The translations under genes and the position numbers were made by a program. From a virus, in the IMG/VR virus record IMGVR_UViG_3300040770_000357: a DNA stretch of 64,000 nucleotides, one strand, 5' to 3'. Positions 59,119-64,000 of the stretch are shown piece by piece (the first letter of the stretch is position 1; every line of letters begins with the position of its first letter). Under the pieces are notes generated by a model. That model did no database searches and was not told the origin of the DNA. It saw nothing but the letters and a program-made list of their open reading frames with translations.

Positions 59119-59430
59119 CTTAAAAATAGCCATATATGTAATGACTAAAATAGGAATGCTATACTGTATGATAAATTCAGAATGGTTAGCACTATACGGA
59201 TTTATAATAGCAACAATATATACATATATAGATATGGTGACATATGATACATAGAAGCTATATAAAGACTCCTAAGACATGATAACCTATTATATGGGCC
59301 GTAGGCCCATAAGGTACTATATGGTACCTTAATTAGCACGTTACGTCTATTTTGGGATTTTGTGGGAAAAGTGGTAATAAGTGGTAGAAGGTGGGATTTT
59401 TGCTCGATTTCAGTACCTATAATTGGAAAG

Positions 59431-59483
59431 TACTTAAAAATACCTAAAAATAATACTTAAAAATACTTAAAAATACTTAAAAA
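59431..59483. repeat. Tandem 10-nt repeats (AAATACTTAA-like) x4-5
   Basis: tacttaaaaa tacctaaaaa taatacttaaaaa tacttaaaaa tacttaaaaa. Confidence 0.75.
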
Positions 59484-60208
59484 GTTTTATACTATGTTCT
59501 TTCACACGACGATTTTTCCAGCCAGAATTTTCAGAACTAGGTTATCTGGTATAATATACACATTTGTGTACACGGTTTATATAAAACCATAAAAGGGTTA
59601 ATTAGGGTGTCTTATATGATTATATGTATATAGGGTAATCTAGATATTCTCTATATAGGATAATATAGATTGGCGTTCTTTAACATATTGAATAGACTGG
59701 TTATATGTATGGCCGATATGTACTATAGTCTCTGGTGACCTCTGGTAATTATACACTATGGTCTTATTATACGGCCCAGATTGTACCACCCTAGTTATTA
59801 GGTGGTTATAGTTTATGGTTCTATATAGGATAAGTTGTTTACTGTAGTCTCTGGTAATTTATTATATGACACTGTTATACTATGCTATATATACACATTT
59901 GTGTATACAGCTTTGGGGTTCCATGGTTTCATGGGTTATATGGTCCTATCTAGTTTTGTTTGAGTCATGGCATAGATATGTTGTTCTGTATATGGCATTA
60001 TCTATATAGGATAATATCATATCAGTTTTGGCATATTGTTATAGCATGATTTTATGGTACTTATGCTGACTTCACAATATTGCGTGATTAGTCACCTTAT
60101 ATACTATATGGTATTATACTAGAGTGGCCGATATTTTTTTTAATTTTTTTTAGCGCATAATTAGCTTGTTTTATTTAGATAGGCATTTGAGTTATGTGTA
60201 CGACTTTT

Positions 60209-60238
60209 TGCCCTATCTGAGTGAACGGATAGGGCAAT
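60209..60238. terminator. Strong hairpin/terminator
   Basis: TTGCCCTATC/GATAGGGCAA. Confidence 0.65.
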
Positions 60239-60394
60239 AGATTTCCTTCCCACGTATTAGGTGGGATAAAGCGTACTTTCTCACACCACCATTATGTATG
60301 GCGTGTGTCATTGGCAAAGATAGGTTAAAATAACGGTTCTACCAAATAATTTCGTTATTTATATTTGGTCTAGATAGCGTTGAATATAAGGTAG

Positions 60395-60500
60395 GTTGGA
60401 GTCTACACTCTAGCCCGATTGCTACCTGTATCCGTTTCCTTCCTACTATACAAAGATAGGGAATTAGTATTTAGTACGCAAGAAAAAAGTGATTTATTTT
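60395..60500 (-). ncRNA. Antisense promoter + small RNA cassette, copy 1
   Basis: Near-identical to 63668-63772 except a central 18-nt segment and the promoter spacer. Confidence 0.55.
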
Positions 60501-60609
60501 ATGGTATATAAGGAGTAATAAAATCCTGGAAAATAATTCATATAGTATAGTGTAAAATCCAATTAAAGGTTATATCTTTGCTGAGGTAAAACCAACTAAA
60601 ACTATTATT

Positions 60610-61002
60610 ATGAGAATGACTAGAAAATTATTTATTGTAGAAGTTATTGACGAAATCAATAACATAAAGAAACGTGCAACAAGTGAAGAGATATCTAAAT
60701 TAGATTTAGAGACTTTTGACCATGCTAATCGCTATGCGTGTATCTATGGACAAATGACGGGTAGTTGTACAAGTGTTAGGGCAAAAGACTTGATGGCTAA
60801 AACTTATTCTGATGTATGTCAATCTCTTACATTTACAGATTTCGTAAAATTCAGTGAACAAAAATTTAAAAATGATGGTGAAACTTATTATACTCCATTA
60901 GAAAAATATCTATATATGGTAGTAGTTAAAAACCGTGCTAATATTTTTTATTCTATCATAACTTATTTGAAAGGTGAGAGTGATGAATTGATTAAGTTAT
61001 AG
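60610..61002 (+). CDS. Hypothetical early protein
   Basis: ORF after TATCTTTG promoter. Confidence 0.7.
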   Translation: MRMTRKLFIVEVIDEINNIKKRATSEEISKLDLETFDHANRYACIYGQMTGSCTSVRAKDLMAKTYSDVCQSLTFTDFVKFSEQKFKNDGETYYTPLEKYLYMVVVKNRANIFYSIITYLKGESDELIKL

Positions 61003-61099
61003 TGAATAAAAAAATTTAAATAAAACTATATAATATATTAGATTATATCATATAGTTTTATTATCTTTGCTAAAGTAAAAACCAATAAAATATAAAGTC

Positions 61100-61621
61100 A
61101 TGAGTTTAACAGTAAATCAAAAAGAAATTGTCGCTAAATTAAAAGAAGAGTTCGAGGTATTGAATGCTATCGAAGCTACTAAATCTGTTGTAGGGTTTTT
61201 TGATTTTAGTGCTATTGATGCATTAAAAAAGGCTGAACAAAAAAAAGCGGGTGAAATCAAGTTACAGAATGAATTAATATTCAATAAGTTTTTTACTGAT
61301 TTTAAAGATAATGTAACAAAATTAAAGGCTGAACTTGTGGAGCGAGGTTTTGTAGTTGAAATAAAGTTAGATATTACAACTAAAGATACTTGGAACCAAA
61401 GATGTATTGTATCATATGATGGTCGTGAAAAGTTCACAATTTTAATGGCTGAGGGAAGTGATTTTATTAATTTAGCTATTGGTTCTGTAATTAAAAGAAT
61501 TAGTATGTCATATAGGGTAAAAAGTCCTTATACTGAAAAGGAGTATGTTACTTTTTTAGAAGCGTGTGGTAAAGATGGTCTTATAAAAGCGATTGTTATG
61601 GACACGTTATTAAAGGATTAA
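61100..61621 (+). CDS. Hypothetical early protein (paralog of 61711-62235)
   Basis: Shared MSLTxNQKEIVAKLKEEF start. Confidence 0.75.
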   Translation: MSLTVNQKEIVAKLKEEFEVLNAIEATKSVVGFFDFSAIDALKKAEQKKAGEIKLQNELIFNKFFTDFKDNVTKLKAELVERGFVVEIKLDITTKDTWNQRCIVSYDGREKFTILMAEGSDFINLAIGSVIKRISMSYRVKSPYTEKEYVTFLEACGKDGLIKAIVMDTLLKD

Positions 61622-61632
61622 ATTATTTAAAT

Positions 61633-61680
61633 AAAACAATACAATATATTAGGTTATATTGTATTGTTTTATTATCTTTG
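61633..61680 (+). promoter_or_regulatory. Promoter embedded in 15-bp perfect inverted repeat
   Basis: AAAACAATACAATAT-ATTAGGTT-ATATTGTATTGTTTT then TATCTTTG. Confidence 0.7.
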
Positions 61681-61710
61681 CTAAAGTAAAAACCAATAAA
61701 ATATAAAGCC

Positions 61711-62235
61711 ATGAGTTTAACAATAAATCAAAAAGAAATTGTCGCTAAATTAAAAGAAGAGTTTATAAAACTGAATAAGGAATTGATTGTATCTAATAAT
61801 GATATTTTTGATTTTGGTTTTATTGATGAGCTTAAAATTAAAGAGACCAAAGTTGTAAATGATGTTAATTTGAGTAATAGTTATCTTAGTAAAACTATTT
61901 TAACTGAATGGGATAATAACGTAAAACGTATTAAACCTATTTTTGAAGCGAGAGGTTTTGTGGTAACTGAGAAAAATTGTAGTGATACTAAGAATAATTT
62001 TGAGACACGTAGATTACATTTTGATTTTAATAAAGAAAATGTTTTTGTTATATCTATTGATGCTGATTTTTTAACTATAAAACAAACTGTTGTTTATGTT
62101 TACCAATTAAAAGGGCATAGTTATAAAGTAGTTGGTAATGGTCGTTATCGTGATGCGGTTAATTCAGATACTTTTGATGGACTGTTTAAAACTAATTTTG
62201 TTATCGAGAGAATTAAAAGATGTCTTTTAAAATAA
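61711..62235 (+). CDS. Hypothetical early protein (paralog of 61100-61621)
   Basis: Shared promoter and N-terminus. Confidence 0.75.
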   Translation: MSLTINQKEIVAKLKEEFIKLNKELIVSNNDIFDFGFIDELKIKETKVVNDVNLSNSYLSKTILTEWDNNVKRIKPIFEARGFVVTEKNCSDTKNNFETRRLHFDFNKENVFVISIDADFLTIKQTVVYVYQLKGHSYKVVGNGRYRDAVNSDTFDGLFKTNFVIERIKRCLLK

Positions 62236-62319
62236 AATAAAAATTTGTGCAAATATATTAGGTTATATTATATAAAAGCTATATATTTGCACAAGTAATA
62301 ATCAACTAAACCAAATCAT

Positions 62320-63090
62320 ATGTCTAAAATTGTCGAAGTAGTAAAAAGAAAACCATTATTAAGTTCAAATAATTCAAAAACCGTTAAGGGTGAAAAGTTA
62401 GGCTATATGACTTATATAGTTTATATGTCGCCATTTACCGACAATAGCAAAGGTATTAACGTTTGCAGTCATGCATCGAAAGGTTGTGCTGATAGTTGTT
62501 TAGTTGGTAGTGGTTTTGGTGGTATGTTTGAAAATGTAATGATAGGTCGTAGAAACAAAACTGAATACTTTTTAAGTAACAGGGTTGAGTTTATGAACCA
62601 ATTAGTAAGTGAGATTACTAAGGTGTTAAAAAAGCACGCTGATAAAGCTATTGTAACTATTCGTTTGAATGGTACAAGTGATTTACCTTTTGAAAAGTAT
62701 AAGATTAAAGATAATAAAAATATCTTTGAATTGTTTCCAGATGTACAATTTTATGATTACACTAAAAACTATTTACGTTTTGATAAAGTGTTACCTAAAA
62801 ATTATCACTTAACATTTTCACGTTCTGAAACGAACCATACTAAAAGTATTGAAATGTTAAACAGAGGTTTTAACGTTGCAATGGTATTCGACAAATTACC
62901 AAGTCATTACGAGGGTTTTGAGGTTATTAATGGAGATTTAGATGATTTACGTTTCTTAGATAAAAAGAATGTCGTAGTAGGTCTAAAATACAAAAAAATG
63001 ACTGGGAAGGGTGCTAATAACAAATTAGCTTATGATAGTGGTTTCGCTATCAAAACTGAAAATGATGTAGCTTTATTAAATGTAGCTTAA
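62320..63090 (+). CDS. GP88-family protein (radical-SAM-like Cys motif)
   Basis: CSHASKGCADSC, RLNGTSD, FYDYTK, YHLTFS, GDLDDLRFLD. Confidence 0.8.
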   Translation: MSKIVEVVKRKPLLSSNNSKTVKGEKLGYMTYIVYMSPFTDNSKGINVCSHASKGCADSCLVGSGFGGMFENVMIGRRNKTEYFLSNRVEFMNQLVSEITKVLKKHADKAIVTIRLNGTSDLPFEKYKIKDNKNIFELFPDVQFYDYTKNYLRFDKVLPKNYHLTFSRSETNHTKSIEMLNRGFNVAMVFDKLPSHYEGFEVINGDLDDLRFLDKKNVVVGLKYKKMTGKGANNKLAYDSGFAIKTENDVALLNVA

Positions 63091-63174
63091 ATAAATTAAA
63101 ATACCCTATCTAAAATTAGGTAGGGTTATTTAAATTATCTATATTTGTCATCTAATCAACAAAAACTATTTACC

Positions 63175-63603
63175 ATGCAAAAATTTCTAGCGTTACCAAT
63201 AATACAAACAAATGAGATGTACGGATACTCAACTATTGTAGTTCCATTAACTGATGAGAATATCACAAAAGTTAATGACTTAAAAAGTAATTTTGAAAGC
63301 ATCAAAAAACTATATCCAAGTATATCAAGTGTAACATATTATAACATTATGTTTGACTATGATGTTATGAATGATACCTTAGATATTGACTTAGATGAGG
63401 ATAACGCAAATATAATTCAATTAAGCGAAGAGGATTACGAAAAGTATTCTGATACGTCAGACTGTAATTGTCGTATTGATGATTCCTATATTGTTGTTGA
63501 TGATAGAGGTATAAGAATTGTCTATAACGCAAAGTGGACTGCTGATGAAGTATATACTTCATTATATTTTATCCTATTAGATAAAATTGAAGTAACTGAA
63601 TAA
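63175..63603 (+). CDS. Hypothetical acidic protein
   Basis: ATG after promoter; followed by terminator. Confidence 0.65.
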   Translation: MQKFLALPIIQTNEMYGYSTIVVPLTDENITKVNDLKSNFESIKKLYPSISSVTYYNIMFDYDVMNDTLDIDLDEDNANIIQLSEEDYEKYSDTSDCNCRIDDSYIVVDDRGIRIVYNAKWTADEVYTSLYFILLDKIEVTE

Positions 63604-63609
63604 AAAATT

Positions 63610-63637
63610 AAAACCCTATCAACTTGGTAGGGTTTTT
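63610..63637. terminator. Bidirectional terminator
   Basis: AAAACCCTA/TAGGGTTTT. Confidence 0.7.
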
Positions 63638-63667
63638 GCGCTGAACTAAAAAAAAAAGTATAGACGT

Positions 63668-63772
63668 GTTGGAGTCTACTCTTTCACTCATCGTGACCCG
63701 TATCCGTTTCCTTTCTACTATGTAAAGATAAGCTATTTAGAATTACCACGCAAGAAAAAAGTGATTTATTTT
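63668..63772 (-). ncRNA. Antisense promoter + small RNA cassette, copy 2
   Basis: Near-identical to 60395-60500; T run follows on minus strand. Confidence 0.55.
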
Positions 63773-63854
63773 TATTTAAATTATTTTGTTTAAAAATTAG
63801 GTTATATTGTATAAAAGCTATATCTTTGTCCTCTAACCAACTAAAACCTTTATT

Positions 63855-64000
63855 ATGGGAGTTAAGAAATGTATTAAGAAAATTGAGCGTAAAATAGAGT
63901 TTAATAGATTGTTATCTATAGGACAATTTAATGATGGTCAAGATAAGGCATCACGTAAAACTAATGAAGTTAATGCAGTTTTATTAGATGTATTAAAGGT
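63855..64000 (+). CDS. Hypothetical protein (3' truncated)
   Basis: ATG after TATCTTTG promoter, open to window end. Confidence 0.55.
   Translation, partial: MGVKKCIKKIERKIEFNRLLSIGQFNDGQDKASRKTNEVNAVLLDVLK

What the first reader, a model, noticed from the sequence alone, without database searches (positions are those of the whole stretch)
60395..63772. Duplicated antisense small-RNA cassette with constant-variable-constant architecture
Seen at 60395-60500 and 63668-63772, each back-to-back with a + strand early promoter. Minus-strand promoter (TTTTTTCTTGCG..TATCTTT) leads to TAGTAG(G/A)AAGGAAACGGATAC(A/G)GGT, then a variable AGCAATCGGGCTAGAGTG (18 nt) or CACGATGAGTGAAAGAG (17 nt), then TAGACTCCAAC. 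No conserved ORF. Inference: guide-like or decoy RNAs (scaffold + exchangeable spacer, reminiscent of solitary CRISPR-repeat units or antitoxin RNAs), or GGA-rich protein sponges.
Basis: partly seen in the sequence, partly recalled or inferred. Interest (0 to 1): 0.7.

Follow-up and report, generated by a model that had tools for sequence, protein, structure and literature searches.

The report
Multicopy structured small RNA of phages
The two look-alike stretches are genes for a short folded RNA that occurs up to 13 times per genome in many marine, lake and ice phages of Flavobacteria-like hosts; its "variable" middle is an ordinary drifting hairpin, not a guide, and its function is unknown.

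Summary
Both elements exist at the stated places (77-nt repeat, 83% identical), and each has a Bacteroidota-type promoter on the minus strand.

The guide or spacer reading is not supported. About 156 distinct homologues from about 20 IMG/VR contigs, at least 120 metagenome stretches, 3 phage-like MAG contigs, and the cultured Tenacibaculum phage Larrie and Cellulophaga phage phiST give one consensus for a 55-75 nt RNA:
- a 5' hairpin (P1) that starts at +1;
- GGG;
- a RAGA linker;
- an invariant GUAGACUCC that forms the 5' arm and loop of a terminator-like hairpin;
- usually a U-tract.

P1 and P3 show strong compensatory variation: 85-92% of cells are paired, against 24-45% in slid controls. 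G.U pairs fix the transcribed strand.

Copies cluster among small early-type genes, with 13 in 26 kb in one contig, and usually run antiparallel to those genes. This phage has at least four copies, two of them in the window.

There was no Rfam match, no paper, no counterpart in sampled host genomes and no CRISPR-like array. No expression data could be obtained.

My best guess is an early, trans-acting RNA that binds some factor through its invariant 3' module. The family seems undescribed in the literature, but this scan had already noted what appears to be the same family in another genome (e1-5374889).

The parts
60389..60446 (-). Small RNA gene copy A. +1 is G at 60446. P1 hairpin 60446-60428, AGG 60427-60425, P3 hairpin 60424-60411, linker GAGU, invariant GUAGACUCC 60406-60398, CUAC arm 60394-60391. 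No U-tract follows.
   Evidence: CM R1 hit of 49.1 bits, E 1.8e-12; sequence; family consensus.
60451..60489 (-). Promoter of copy A: -7 box TATCTTTG (60458-60451) and -33 TTG (60481-60479) with a 20-nt spacer, plus T-rich upstream sequence.
   Evidence: Read. Position relative to +1 is conserved in homologues.
63648..63718 (-). Small RNA gene copy B. +1 is G at 63718. P1 63718-63700, GGG, P3 hairpin 63696-63684 (UCAC-GAUGA-GUGA), linker AAGA, invariant GUAGACUCC 63679-63671, 3' arm GUCUAU 63665-63660, U10 tract 63657-63648.
   Evidence: CM R1 hit at 63662-63718 of 56.2 bits, E 1.3e-14; sequence; constrained fold.
63723..63761 (-). Promoter of copy B: -7 box TATCTTTA (63730-63723) and -33 TTG (63753-63751) with a 20-nt spacer.
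   Evidence: Read. It lies within the 77-nt repeat.
60573..60580 (+). -7 box (TATCTTTG) of the divergent + strand promoter for the 130-aa gene at 60610-61002.
   Evidence: (repeat family D4).
63821..63828 (+). -7 box (TATCTTTG) of the divergent + strand promoter for the gene starting at 63855.
   Evidence: (D3, D5).
63604..63640 (.). Hairpin with an A-run on one side and a T-run on the other (AAAACCCTA...TAGGGTTTTT). It is the terminator of the upstream + strand gene (63145-63603) and lies just beyond the 3' end of RNA B.
   Evidence: Sequence. The same layout of gene terminator followed by an antiparallel RNA gene is seen in L001 C and D and in L003.

Best explanation
The two elements are paralogous genes of a widespread and apparently undescribed family of small structured phage RNAs, 55-75 nt long.

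Shown by comparison:
- Each gene has its own host-type promoter at a fixed distance from a conserved G+1.
- The RNA folds into a 5' hairpin P1 (G1-C, U2-A and a covarying third pair, often with an inner stem capped by GNRA), then GGG, then a hairpin P3 with a conserved U-A/C-G base and a freely varying apex.
- A RAGA linker follows, then an invariant GUAGACUCC that supplies the 5' arm and the loop of a last hairpin, usually followed by a U-tract.
- Genes occur 3-13 times per phage genome. They cluster among small early-type genes and mostly run antiparallel to them.

Inferred:
- Host RNA polymerase makes the RNA early in infection as a free-standing molecule.
- The helices are scaffold, and the invariant junction and loop (NAC-GGG ... 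RAGA-GUAGACUCC-RAC) is the working part.
- It most likely acts in trans by binding a conserved protein or complex of the host or phage, as a decoy, sponge or cofactor, rather than by guide-like base pairing.
- Multiple copies would serve dosage.

The confidence given covers the whole statement. The 'shown' part alone I would put at about 0.9.
For: - Repeat and promoters in the window.
- Covariation on the seed alignment: 92.1% of cells paired against 31-45% when partners are slid, 7 pairs with double changes, 0 of 500 shuffles as high.
- Covariation on 59 distinct CM-aligned copies: 85.2% against 24-44%, 11 pairs and 136 cells with double changes. The third pair of P1 is AU:21, UA:21, CG:7.
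- Many G.U pairs (for example GU:23 and UG:16) are valid only on the promoter strand.
- A subgroup keeps the RNA at the same distance from a different, sigma70-like promoter. This fixes the direction of transcription and argues that the RNA itself, not the promoter DNA, is what selection keeps.
- Promoter enrichment.
- Copy numbers and clustering: 13, 8, 6 and 3 copies per record.
- Antiparallel orientation.
- The apical loops of P1 and P3 are often GNRA or UNCG caps, and invariance is confined to the junction and 3' module. This is the pattern of a binding or tertiary core.
- The 12-nt core and its complement occur in sampled Bacteroidota genomes only at the control rate (28 of 301). The CM gave one other weak match among the 150 other genomes searched, which looks spurious. 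Long antisense pairing to a conserved host target, or mimicry of a host RNA, is therefore unlikely.
Against: - There is no transcript evidence at all. No RNA run holds the window. Metatranscriptome contigs laid on a relative covered only protein-coding parts, which is uninformative.
- No binding partner has been identified.
- About 40% of copies lack a U-tract of 4 or more within 30 nt, so some may run on into antisense transcripts.
- Copy A has no terminator and is followed directly by another promoter.
- For copies A and B alone, the single-sequence minimum-energy folds differ from the family consensus: -17.3 against -8.8 kcal/mol for A, and -14.3 against -11.2 for B.
- Their fold z-scores are unremarkable.
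- The invariance of part of the core is inflated because search patterns fixed it. Only CM-found copies show its real variation, for example CUAGACUCC and a variable RAC.
Confidence: 0.45

Rival explanations
1. Base-pairing regulatory sRNA family, like the multicopy FopS sRNAs of Bacteroides. The always single-stranded loop of the last hairpin (UCC-RAC) or the GGG/RAGA junction would be a short seed that pairs with phage or host mRNAs. Paralogues would add dosage or slightly different specificities.
For: - Size, own canonical promoter, terminator-like 3' end and multicopy paralogy match FopS (65-70 nt, 14 copies, sigma-ABfr promoters; PMC11697453).
- The conserved loop is presented by a hairpin in both 3' variants.
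- The three loop residues after CUCC vary between copies (AAC, GAC, AGC, AUG, GUC).
Against: - The 5' end is base-paired from +1, unlike the single-stranded 5' seed of FopS.
- GTTGGAG, the 7-nt complement of the loop, occurs in the window at chance level: 6 found against 4.0 expected.
- The 12-nt core or its complement has no conserved counterpart in 301 sampled Bacteroidota genomes.
- The same core is kept in phages with sigma70-type promoters, which presumably infect other hosts, so a shared mRNA target is less likely.
Confidence: 0.2
2. Cis-acting regulatory or recombination cassette, like PeSL. In this reading the unit matters as DNA and as a transcription signal. It would separate early transcription units through a convergent short transcript plus terminator, with divergent promoter coupling, and would provide dispersed homology for module shuffling. 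The RNA would be a by-product.
For: - Every copy sits between the terminator of one small-gene unit and the promoter of the next, roughly one per 2 kb in G002.
- It is antiparallel to the genes in most loci.
- It flanks the same genes (DUF932, GP88) in many contigs.
- PeSLs of T4-type phages are similar promoter plus stem-loop cassettes in hyperplastic regions (PMC2839356).
Against: - A mere terminator, insulator or recombination site needs no conserved primary sequence across phages with different promoter types.
- It also needs no compensatory base changes in two helices with strand-specific G.U pairs.
- Flanking DNA is not conserved between distant members, only the RNA is.
- In phiST the RNA runs in the same direction as the genes.
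Confidence: 0.15
3. Small-molecule aptamer or small ribozyme. The invariant purine-rich junction between variable, tetraloop-capped helices would be a ligand pocket or catalytic core. It could gate read-through of the 3' hairpin into antisense transcription of the upstream genes.
For: - The architecture is typical of such RNAs: variable helices, GNRA or UNCG caps and about 25 invariant junction residues.
- It is multicopy in phage and metagenome DNA, as are small self-cleaving ribozymes (knowledge, not tested here).
- In GUAG-type copies such as A, the 5' GUAGG competes with the internal GUAG for the same CUAC, so two states are conceivable.
- Many copies lack a strong terminator.
Against: - No match to any Rfam riboswitch or ribozyme, even at E up to 1-10.
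- The RNA starts at +1 of its own promoter and mostly ends in a U-tract with no gene downstream on its strand.
- There is no covariation between the 5' end and the 3' loop residues, so a long-range alternative helix is not supported.
Confidence: 0.1
4. One reading: a guide-like or CRISPR-repeat-mimicking RNA (solitary repeat unit or Racr-like, crRNA- or tracrRNA-like) with an exchangeable spacer, or a GGA-motif sponge.
For: - There is a superficial constant, variable, constant layout.
- Some copies begin with GUUG and the core ends in CAAC, as many Bacteroidota repeats do (recalled from memory, a lead only).
- Racrs are promoter-driven solitary repeats in phages (PMC10651486).
Against: - The variable part is a hairpin apex of 3-12 loop nt with compensatory stem changes.
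- Total length varies from 45 to 80 nt, unlike repeats of fixed length.
- No array with the motif at CRISPR spacing exists in IMG/VR. The single hit is a coding tandem repeat of a giant virus.
- Only phage-like contigs matched among 185,579 species genomes.
- The 150 other Bacteroidota genomes gave only one weak CM match, which looks spurious, and the 12-mer scan of 301 genomes was at the control rate.
- The variable strings have no other match in the window.
- GGA motifs occur only in copies A and B.
Confidence: 0.04

Closest known systems
FopS/GibS multicopy paralogous sRNAs of Bacteroides thetaiotaomicron (PMC11697453)
   Same: Both are intergenic, about 65-70 nt, driven by canonical Bacteroidota TTTG/TAnnTTTG promoters, end in a terminator hairpin, and are present as many paralogues (14 for FopS). 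A FopS-like sequence was also seen in a phage.
   Different: FopS has a single-stranded conserved 5' seed and is a host family deposited in Rfam. Here the 5' end is a hairpin from +1, the invariant part is a 3' junction and loop, the family is confined to phage DNA, and Rfam gives no hit.
PeSL (promoter-early stem-loop) cassettes of T4-type phages (PMC2839356)
   Same: Both are short repeated regulatory cassettes between small non-essential early genes in plastic genome regions, combining a strong host-type promoter with a stem-loop terminator.
   Different: PeSLs point the same way as the genes and are defined as promoter plus terminator. Here the promoter drives a separate, mostly antiparallel, conserved three-hairpin RNA with covariation, and it is conserved across unrelated phage groups and promoter types.
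Racr / solitary CRISPR repeat units of phages (PMC10651486)
   Same: Both are promoter-driven, non-coding, short RNAs encoded singly in phage genomes, possibly in anti-defence neighbourhoods.
   Different: No CRISPR repeat resembling this RNA was found. Its length is variable and its architecture (three hairpins plus an invariant junction) is unlike a repeat.
Multicopy early small-RNA cassettes noted by this scan in RaK2/121Q-like jumbo coliphages (e1-352962, e1-309534, e1-314554), and the same-looking Flavobacteria-phage family (e1-5374889)
   Same: Many independently promoted copies of a roughly 50-70 nt conserved structured RNA lie in the early or terminal region of large phages, with function unknown. 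The description of e1-5374889 (up to 13 copies, two cultivable phages) matches what I found independently.
   Different: The coliphage families share no detectable sequence with this one: BLAST of four family members against 50,697 phage records hit only Tenacibaculum and Cellulophaga phages, apart from weak short matches to other records that were not followed up. These are unchecked AI notes, not literature.

Membership tests
crRNA-like guide (scaffold plus spacer) | Variable segment is an unstructured stretch of about 20-35 nt whose sequence matches targets | tested here: not met
   The variable part is a hairpin apex. The stem is kept by compensatory changes and loops are 3-12 nt. It has no other match in the window at up to 3 mismatches.
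Racr / solitary CRISPR repeat unit | Sequence and structure mimic the CRISPR repeat of a host CRISPR-Cas system | tested here: not met
   The motif scan of 185,579 species genomes returned only phage-like contigs. No array-like spacing was found in IMG/VR. The CM on 150 other Bacteroidota genomes gave one weak, apparently spurious match. The 12-mer on 301 Bacteroidota genomes was at the control rate. No curated repeat database could be searched.
Racr / solitary CRISPR repeat unit | Binds Cas proteins and blocks interference | not testable with these tools
   Needs biochemistry or genetics.
FopS/GibS-type Bacteroidota sRNA | [quoted passage not shown] | tested here: not met
   The 5' end is paired from +1 (P1 98% paired). 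No Rfam hit.
FopS/GibS-type Bacteroidota sRNA | Canonical sigma-ABfr promoter, about 65-70 nt, multicopy paralogues | tested here: met
   This is a likeness of kind, not homology.
PeSL cassette | Strong early promoter plus stem-loop terminator between genes of a hyperplastic region, co-oriented with the genes | tested here: inconclusive
   The location between small-gene units is met. The orientation is mostly opposite to the genes, and a conserved structured RNA is added.
CsrA/RsmA-type GGA sponge | Several GGA motifs in loops, conserved across the family | tested here: not met
   The GGAAGGAAACGGA stretch is present only in window copies A and B. Other members have different P1 sequences.
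Type III antitoxin RNA (ToxI-like) | Tandem repeats directly upstream of the toxin gene | tested here: not met
   Copies are dispersed with their own promoters. No tandem array was seen apart from two adjacent independent genes in L011.
Any Rfam 15 family (tRNA, ribozymes, riboswitches, known sRNAs) | Covariance-model match | tested here: not met
   Only tRNAs at 9-15 kb reached gathering scores in the window. E-value scans of the region and of canonical relatives gave only chance miRNA hits. ARAGORN found nothing there.

The most novel reading that the evidence does not exclude
The family is a new functional class of phage RNA: an early, multicopy RNA whose invariant junction binds and neutralises a conserved bacterial factor. 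That factor could be a defence nuclease or sensor, a signalling nucleotide, RNA polymerase or the ribosome. Alternatively it could be a new small ribozyme or aptamer. Either would make it an RNA-based takeover or anti-defence tool shared by phages of Flavobacteria-like hosts and of hosts with sigma70-type promoters.
Probability: 0.15. Interest if true: 0.85.

Novelty: new variant of a known kind. Interest (0 to 1): 0.6.

Why it matters
Non-coding RNAs of phages are poorly charted, and those of the abundant marine and freshwater Flavobacteria phages not at all.

- **Testability.** It occurs in cultivable phage-host pairs: Cellulophaga baltica with phiST, and Tenacibaculum with Larrie. This makes it an experimentally tractable candidate for a new RNA-based step in early infection.
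- **Annotation.** It explains the 'empty' gaps between early genes in these genomes, and the model can be used to annotate them.
- **For the scan.** The finding shows that a 'constant-variable-constant' pattern seen in only two copies can be an ordinary hairpin with a free apex.

Tried and rejected
- **Own genome:** none is held for this window.
- **BLAST of the 4-kb region against phages, near and distant:** no match.
- **First exact 22-mer in IMG/VR:** no match.
- **5'-3' closing helix** (GUAGG with CCUAC, GUUGG with CCAAC), my first structural idea. I rejected it because GUC-type copies have no partner, and because there is no association between position 3 and the residue after CUCC. The local P1 hairpin explains the covariation instead.
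- **GGG pairing with CUC/UCC in the last loop (pseudoknot):** both sides are nearly invariant, and the variants (AGG, GUG, UGG) are not compensated. It cannot be judged.
- **RNAalifold on the raw MAFFT alignment:** it found only that GGGUC/GACUC helix, with no covariation, because the hairpin columns were out of register.
- **CRISPR-array search:** the only hit was a coding tandem repeat in a giant-virus contig.
- **RNA evidence:** no RNA holder is listed for the window. Two metatranscriptomes held small shares of a relative (L018), and the contigs laid covered only parts of protein genes, so the RNA genes were without cover. This says nothing either way.
- **Weak CM hit in one sampled host genome (G054):** it lies in what looks like coding sequence and lacks the core, so I treated it as spurious.
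- **DUF932 neighbour as possible partner:** no PDB sequence hit. The AF2 model was poor (pLDDT 59), so I made no fold search. The papers listed in the search (titles and abstract openings only) point to no known function.
- **Literature search for the core sequence:** it returned only unrelated constructs and primers.
- **BLAST for cultured relatives of the sigma70-promoter subgroup:** only Larrie again, plus weak chance-level hits.
- **Scan notes:** look-ups by sequence for this window and for a canonical relative found nothing.


Full report
**1. Observation**

The window is phage DNA of about 30% G+C. Nearly all genes are on the + strand, it carries 11 tRNA genes, and promoters are of the Bacteroidota type. 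Its proteins are closest to uncultured huge phages, and the DNA is held by an ice metagenome run.

The two claimed elements are real.
- There is a 77-nt direct repeat at 60424-60500 and 63696-63772, 83% identical.
- It is extended by an identical GTTGGAGTCTAC at 60395 and 63668.
- On the minus strand each copy has TTG, a 20-nt spacer, TATCTTTG or TATCTTTA, then 4 nt, then G.
- A near-identical JGI contig (L001) continues 9 kb past the window end and holds two more copies.

**2. What it is**

Pattern scans with the two constant parts recovered many more copies:
- 27 loci from about 20 IMG/VR contigs;
- three small phage-like contigs binned into MAGs.

BLAST found the core in intergenic DNA of the cultured Tenacibaculum phage Larrie and of Cellulophaga phages phiST, phi19:2 and phi13:1, all of genus Cbastvirus.

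Promoter evidence fixes the transcribed strand.
- In nearly all copies a TAnnTTTG box ends 4 nt before a conserved G.
- 148 of 152 copies have a box-like motif.
- 57% have box plus a correctly spaced TTG, against 8.7% of random 60-mers from the same loci.
- A subgroup (L002, L009, L043, L084, L095, L099) has a sigma70-like TTGTAA-N17-TATAyT promoter at the same place instead.

The transcribed strand is therefore the window's minus strand, and the RNA rather than the promoter DNA is the conserved object.

**3. Structure**

From a 15-sequence alignment (A2) I derived the following fold.
- **P1:** a hairpin starting at +1, with pairs G1-C and U2-A. The third pair covaries (GUU..AAC, GUA..UAC, GUC..GAC). 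It usually has an inner 3-bp stem and often a GNRA loop.
- **GGG.**
- **P3:** a hairpin with a U-A, C-G base and an apex of any sequence and length.
- **Linker:** RAGA.
- **3' module:** an invariant GUAGACUCC followed by either CUAC (type 1, copy A) or ACGUCUAU (type 2, copies B, C, D). Either way GUAG(AC) pairs downstream and leaves an 8-nt loop containing UCC. A U-tract follows in about 57% of copies.

Pair counts support this fold.

| Alignment | Cells paired | Paired when partners are slid | Pairs with double changes | Shuffles reaching the observed paired-cell and covariation scores |
|---|---|---|---|---|
| A2 seed, 15 sequences | 92.1% | 31-45% | 7 | 0 of 500 |
| 59 distinct CM-aligned copies | 85.2% | 24-44% | 11 (136 cells) | 0 of 500 |

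On the larger alignment P1 is 98% paired and P3 87% paired. This alignment leans towards the model, but the seed alignment did not.

Frequent G.U pairs would be A.C on the other strand, so the fold belongs to the promoter strand.

The last hairpin shows only one-sided, wobble-compatible changes (CUAC to CUGC or CUAU), because its 5' arm is invariant.

A long-range 5'-3' helix, which is the minimum-energy fold of copy A alone, is not supported by covariation.

**4.

The strings at 60406-60423 and 63679-63695 are RNA positions 24-41 and 24-40. That is the P3 loop, its 3' arm and the linker.
- Copy B has UCAC-GAUGA-GUGA.
- Copies C and D keep the same stem with loops UAAGCA and GGUA.
- Copy A has UAGC-AAUCGG-GCUA.

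Across the family the loops are 3-12 nt and are often GNRA or UNCG caps. The strings have no other match in the window.

This is drift in a structurally constrained but sequence-free hairpin, not a spacer. The GGA-rich stretch is the P1 of copies A and B only.

**5. Genomic setting**

| Record | Copies | Span |
|---|---|---|
| G002, 128-kb contig | 13 | 26 kb |
| G003 | 8 | 22 kb |
| G001 | 6 | 5 kb |
| Phage Larrie | 3 | 2.5 kb |
| Phage phiST | 2 good, 2 weak | near the record ends |
| Window | 2 | A and B |

Each copy lies between the terminator of one unit of small ORFs and the promoter of the next. It is almost always antiparallel to those ORFs, but phiST is an exception.

A DUF932 gene is bracketed by two RNA genes in ten independent contigs, including this phage. 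GP88 is the next commonest neighbour. This may be plain synteny or may be a functional link. I could not resolve it, because the AF2 model was poor and there is no PDB relative.

**6. What it is not**

- No Rfam family matches, either in the window or in canonical relatives.
- It is not a tRNA.
- No conserved host counterpart was found. The CM on 150 other sampled Bacteroidota genomes gave one spurious weak hit.
- The 12-nt core or its complement occurs in 28 of 301 genomes, which is about the rate of the reversed control.
- No CRISPR-like array carries the motif.
- I found no paper on it.

**7. Mechanism**

Shown: gene structure, fold, multiplicity, distribution and strand.

Not shown: transcription and any partner.

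The pattern is variable capped helices with about 25 invariant junction and loop residues. It is kept across phage groups as different as 78-kb Cbastviruses and contigs of over 200 kb, and across two promoter types. This points to recognition by a conserved macromolecule or ligand.

I therefore favour an early, dosage-amplified, trans-acting factor-binding RNA, at about 0.45 including the inferred steps. The rivals are:
- a short-seed base-pairing sRNA, 0.2;
- a cis-acting PeSL-like cassette or insulator, 0.15;
- an aptamer or ribozyme, 0.1;
- the guide or Racr reading, below 0.05.

**8. Comparison and novelty**

In kind it is closest to the multicopy FopS sRNAs of Bacteroides and, by position, to the PeSL cassettes of T4-type phages. 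It is a member of neither.

A note of this scan (e1-5374889) appears to describe the same family in another giant phage. That agrees with my independent result but is not independent evidence.

I rate it a new variant of a known kind, namely phage or Bacteroidota multicopy small RNAs, with interest 0.6.

Noticed in passing
window 59250-60390: About 1.1 kb has no ORF over 50 aa and is dense in short direct repeats: TCTATATAGGATAA three times at 59650, 59820 and 60001; ATATACACATTTGTGTA twice; TACTTAAAAATAC three or four times at 59427-59483. It could be an origin, a packaging site or a terminus-like region. A similar ORF-free 1.1-kb gap adjoins the RNA genes of phage Larrie (L034 6416-7553).
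   Followed up: no
window 60200-60350, minus strand: A second Bacteroidota-type promoter (-33 TTTGG near 60345, -7 TATCTTTG at 60322-60315) lies directly downstream of RNA copy A. About 110-150 nt of strong hairpins follow, including GCCCTATC..GATAGGGC at 60210-60237. Neither model R1 nor Rfam recognises it. In L011 the equivalent second promoter drives a second copy of the same RNA family.
   Followed up: partly
L001 11807-12784 (window-equivalent 64126-65103), and L003, L007, L016, L018, L020, L031, L051, L054, L070: A DUF932 (PF06067) gene is flanked on both sides by antiparallel copies of the RNA gene in ten independent contigs. The function of DUF932 is unknown, and the AF2 model was poor (pLDDT 59).
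   Followed up: partly
window 62320-63090: A GP88 (PF17338) protein, 44-47% identical to proteins encoded near the start of several Pelagibacter podophage records. It recurs next to the RNA genes in 5 loci, and its function is unknown.
   Followed up: partly
window 61006-61152 and 61617-61763: A 147-nt direct repeat, 93% identical, covers the promoter and 5' ends of two adjacent paralogous genes (173 and 174 aa). This looks like a recent tandem gene duplication in the early region.
   Followed up: no
L002, L004, L009, L043, L084, L095, L099: A subgroup of the RNA family sits behind a repeated sigma70-like promoter (TTGTAAC..N17..GTTATAC) instead of TAnnTTTG, in contigs of higher G+C. These phages may infect non-Bacteroidota hosts, or use another sigma factor.
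   Followed up: partly
G275 contig C5 (3670, 20708, 23128): One sampled Bacteroidota genome carries three copies of the 12-nt core on a single contig. It may be a prophage or a phage contig bearing the family.
   Followed up: no
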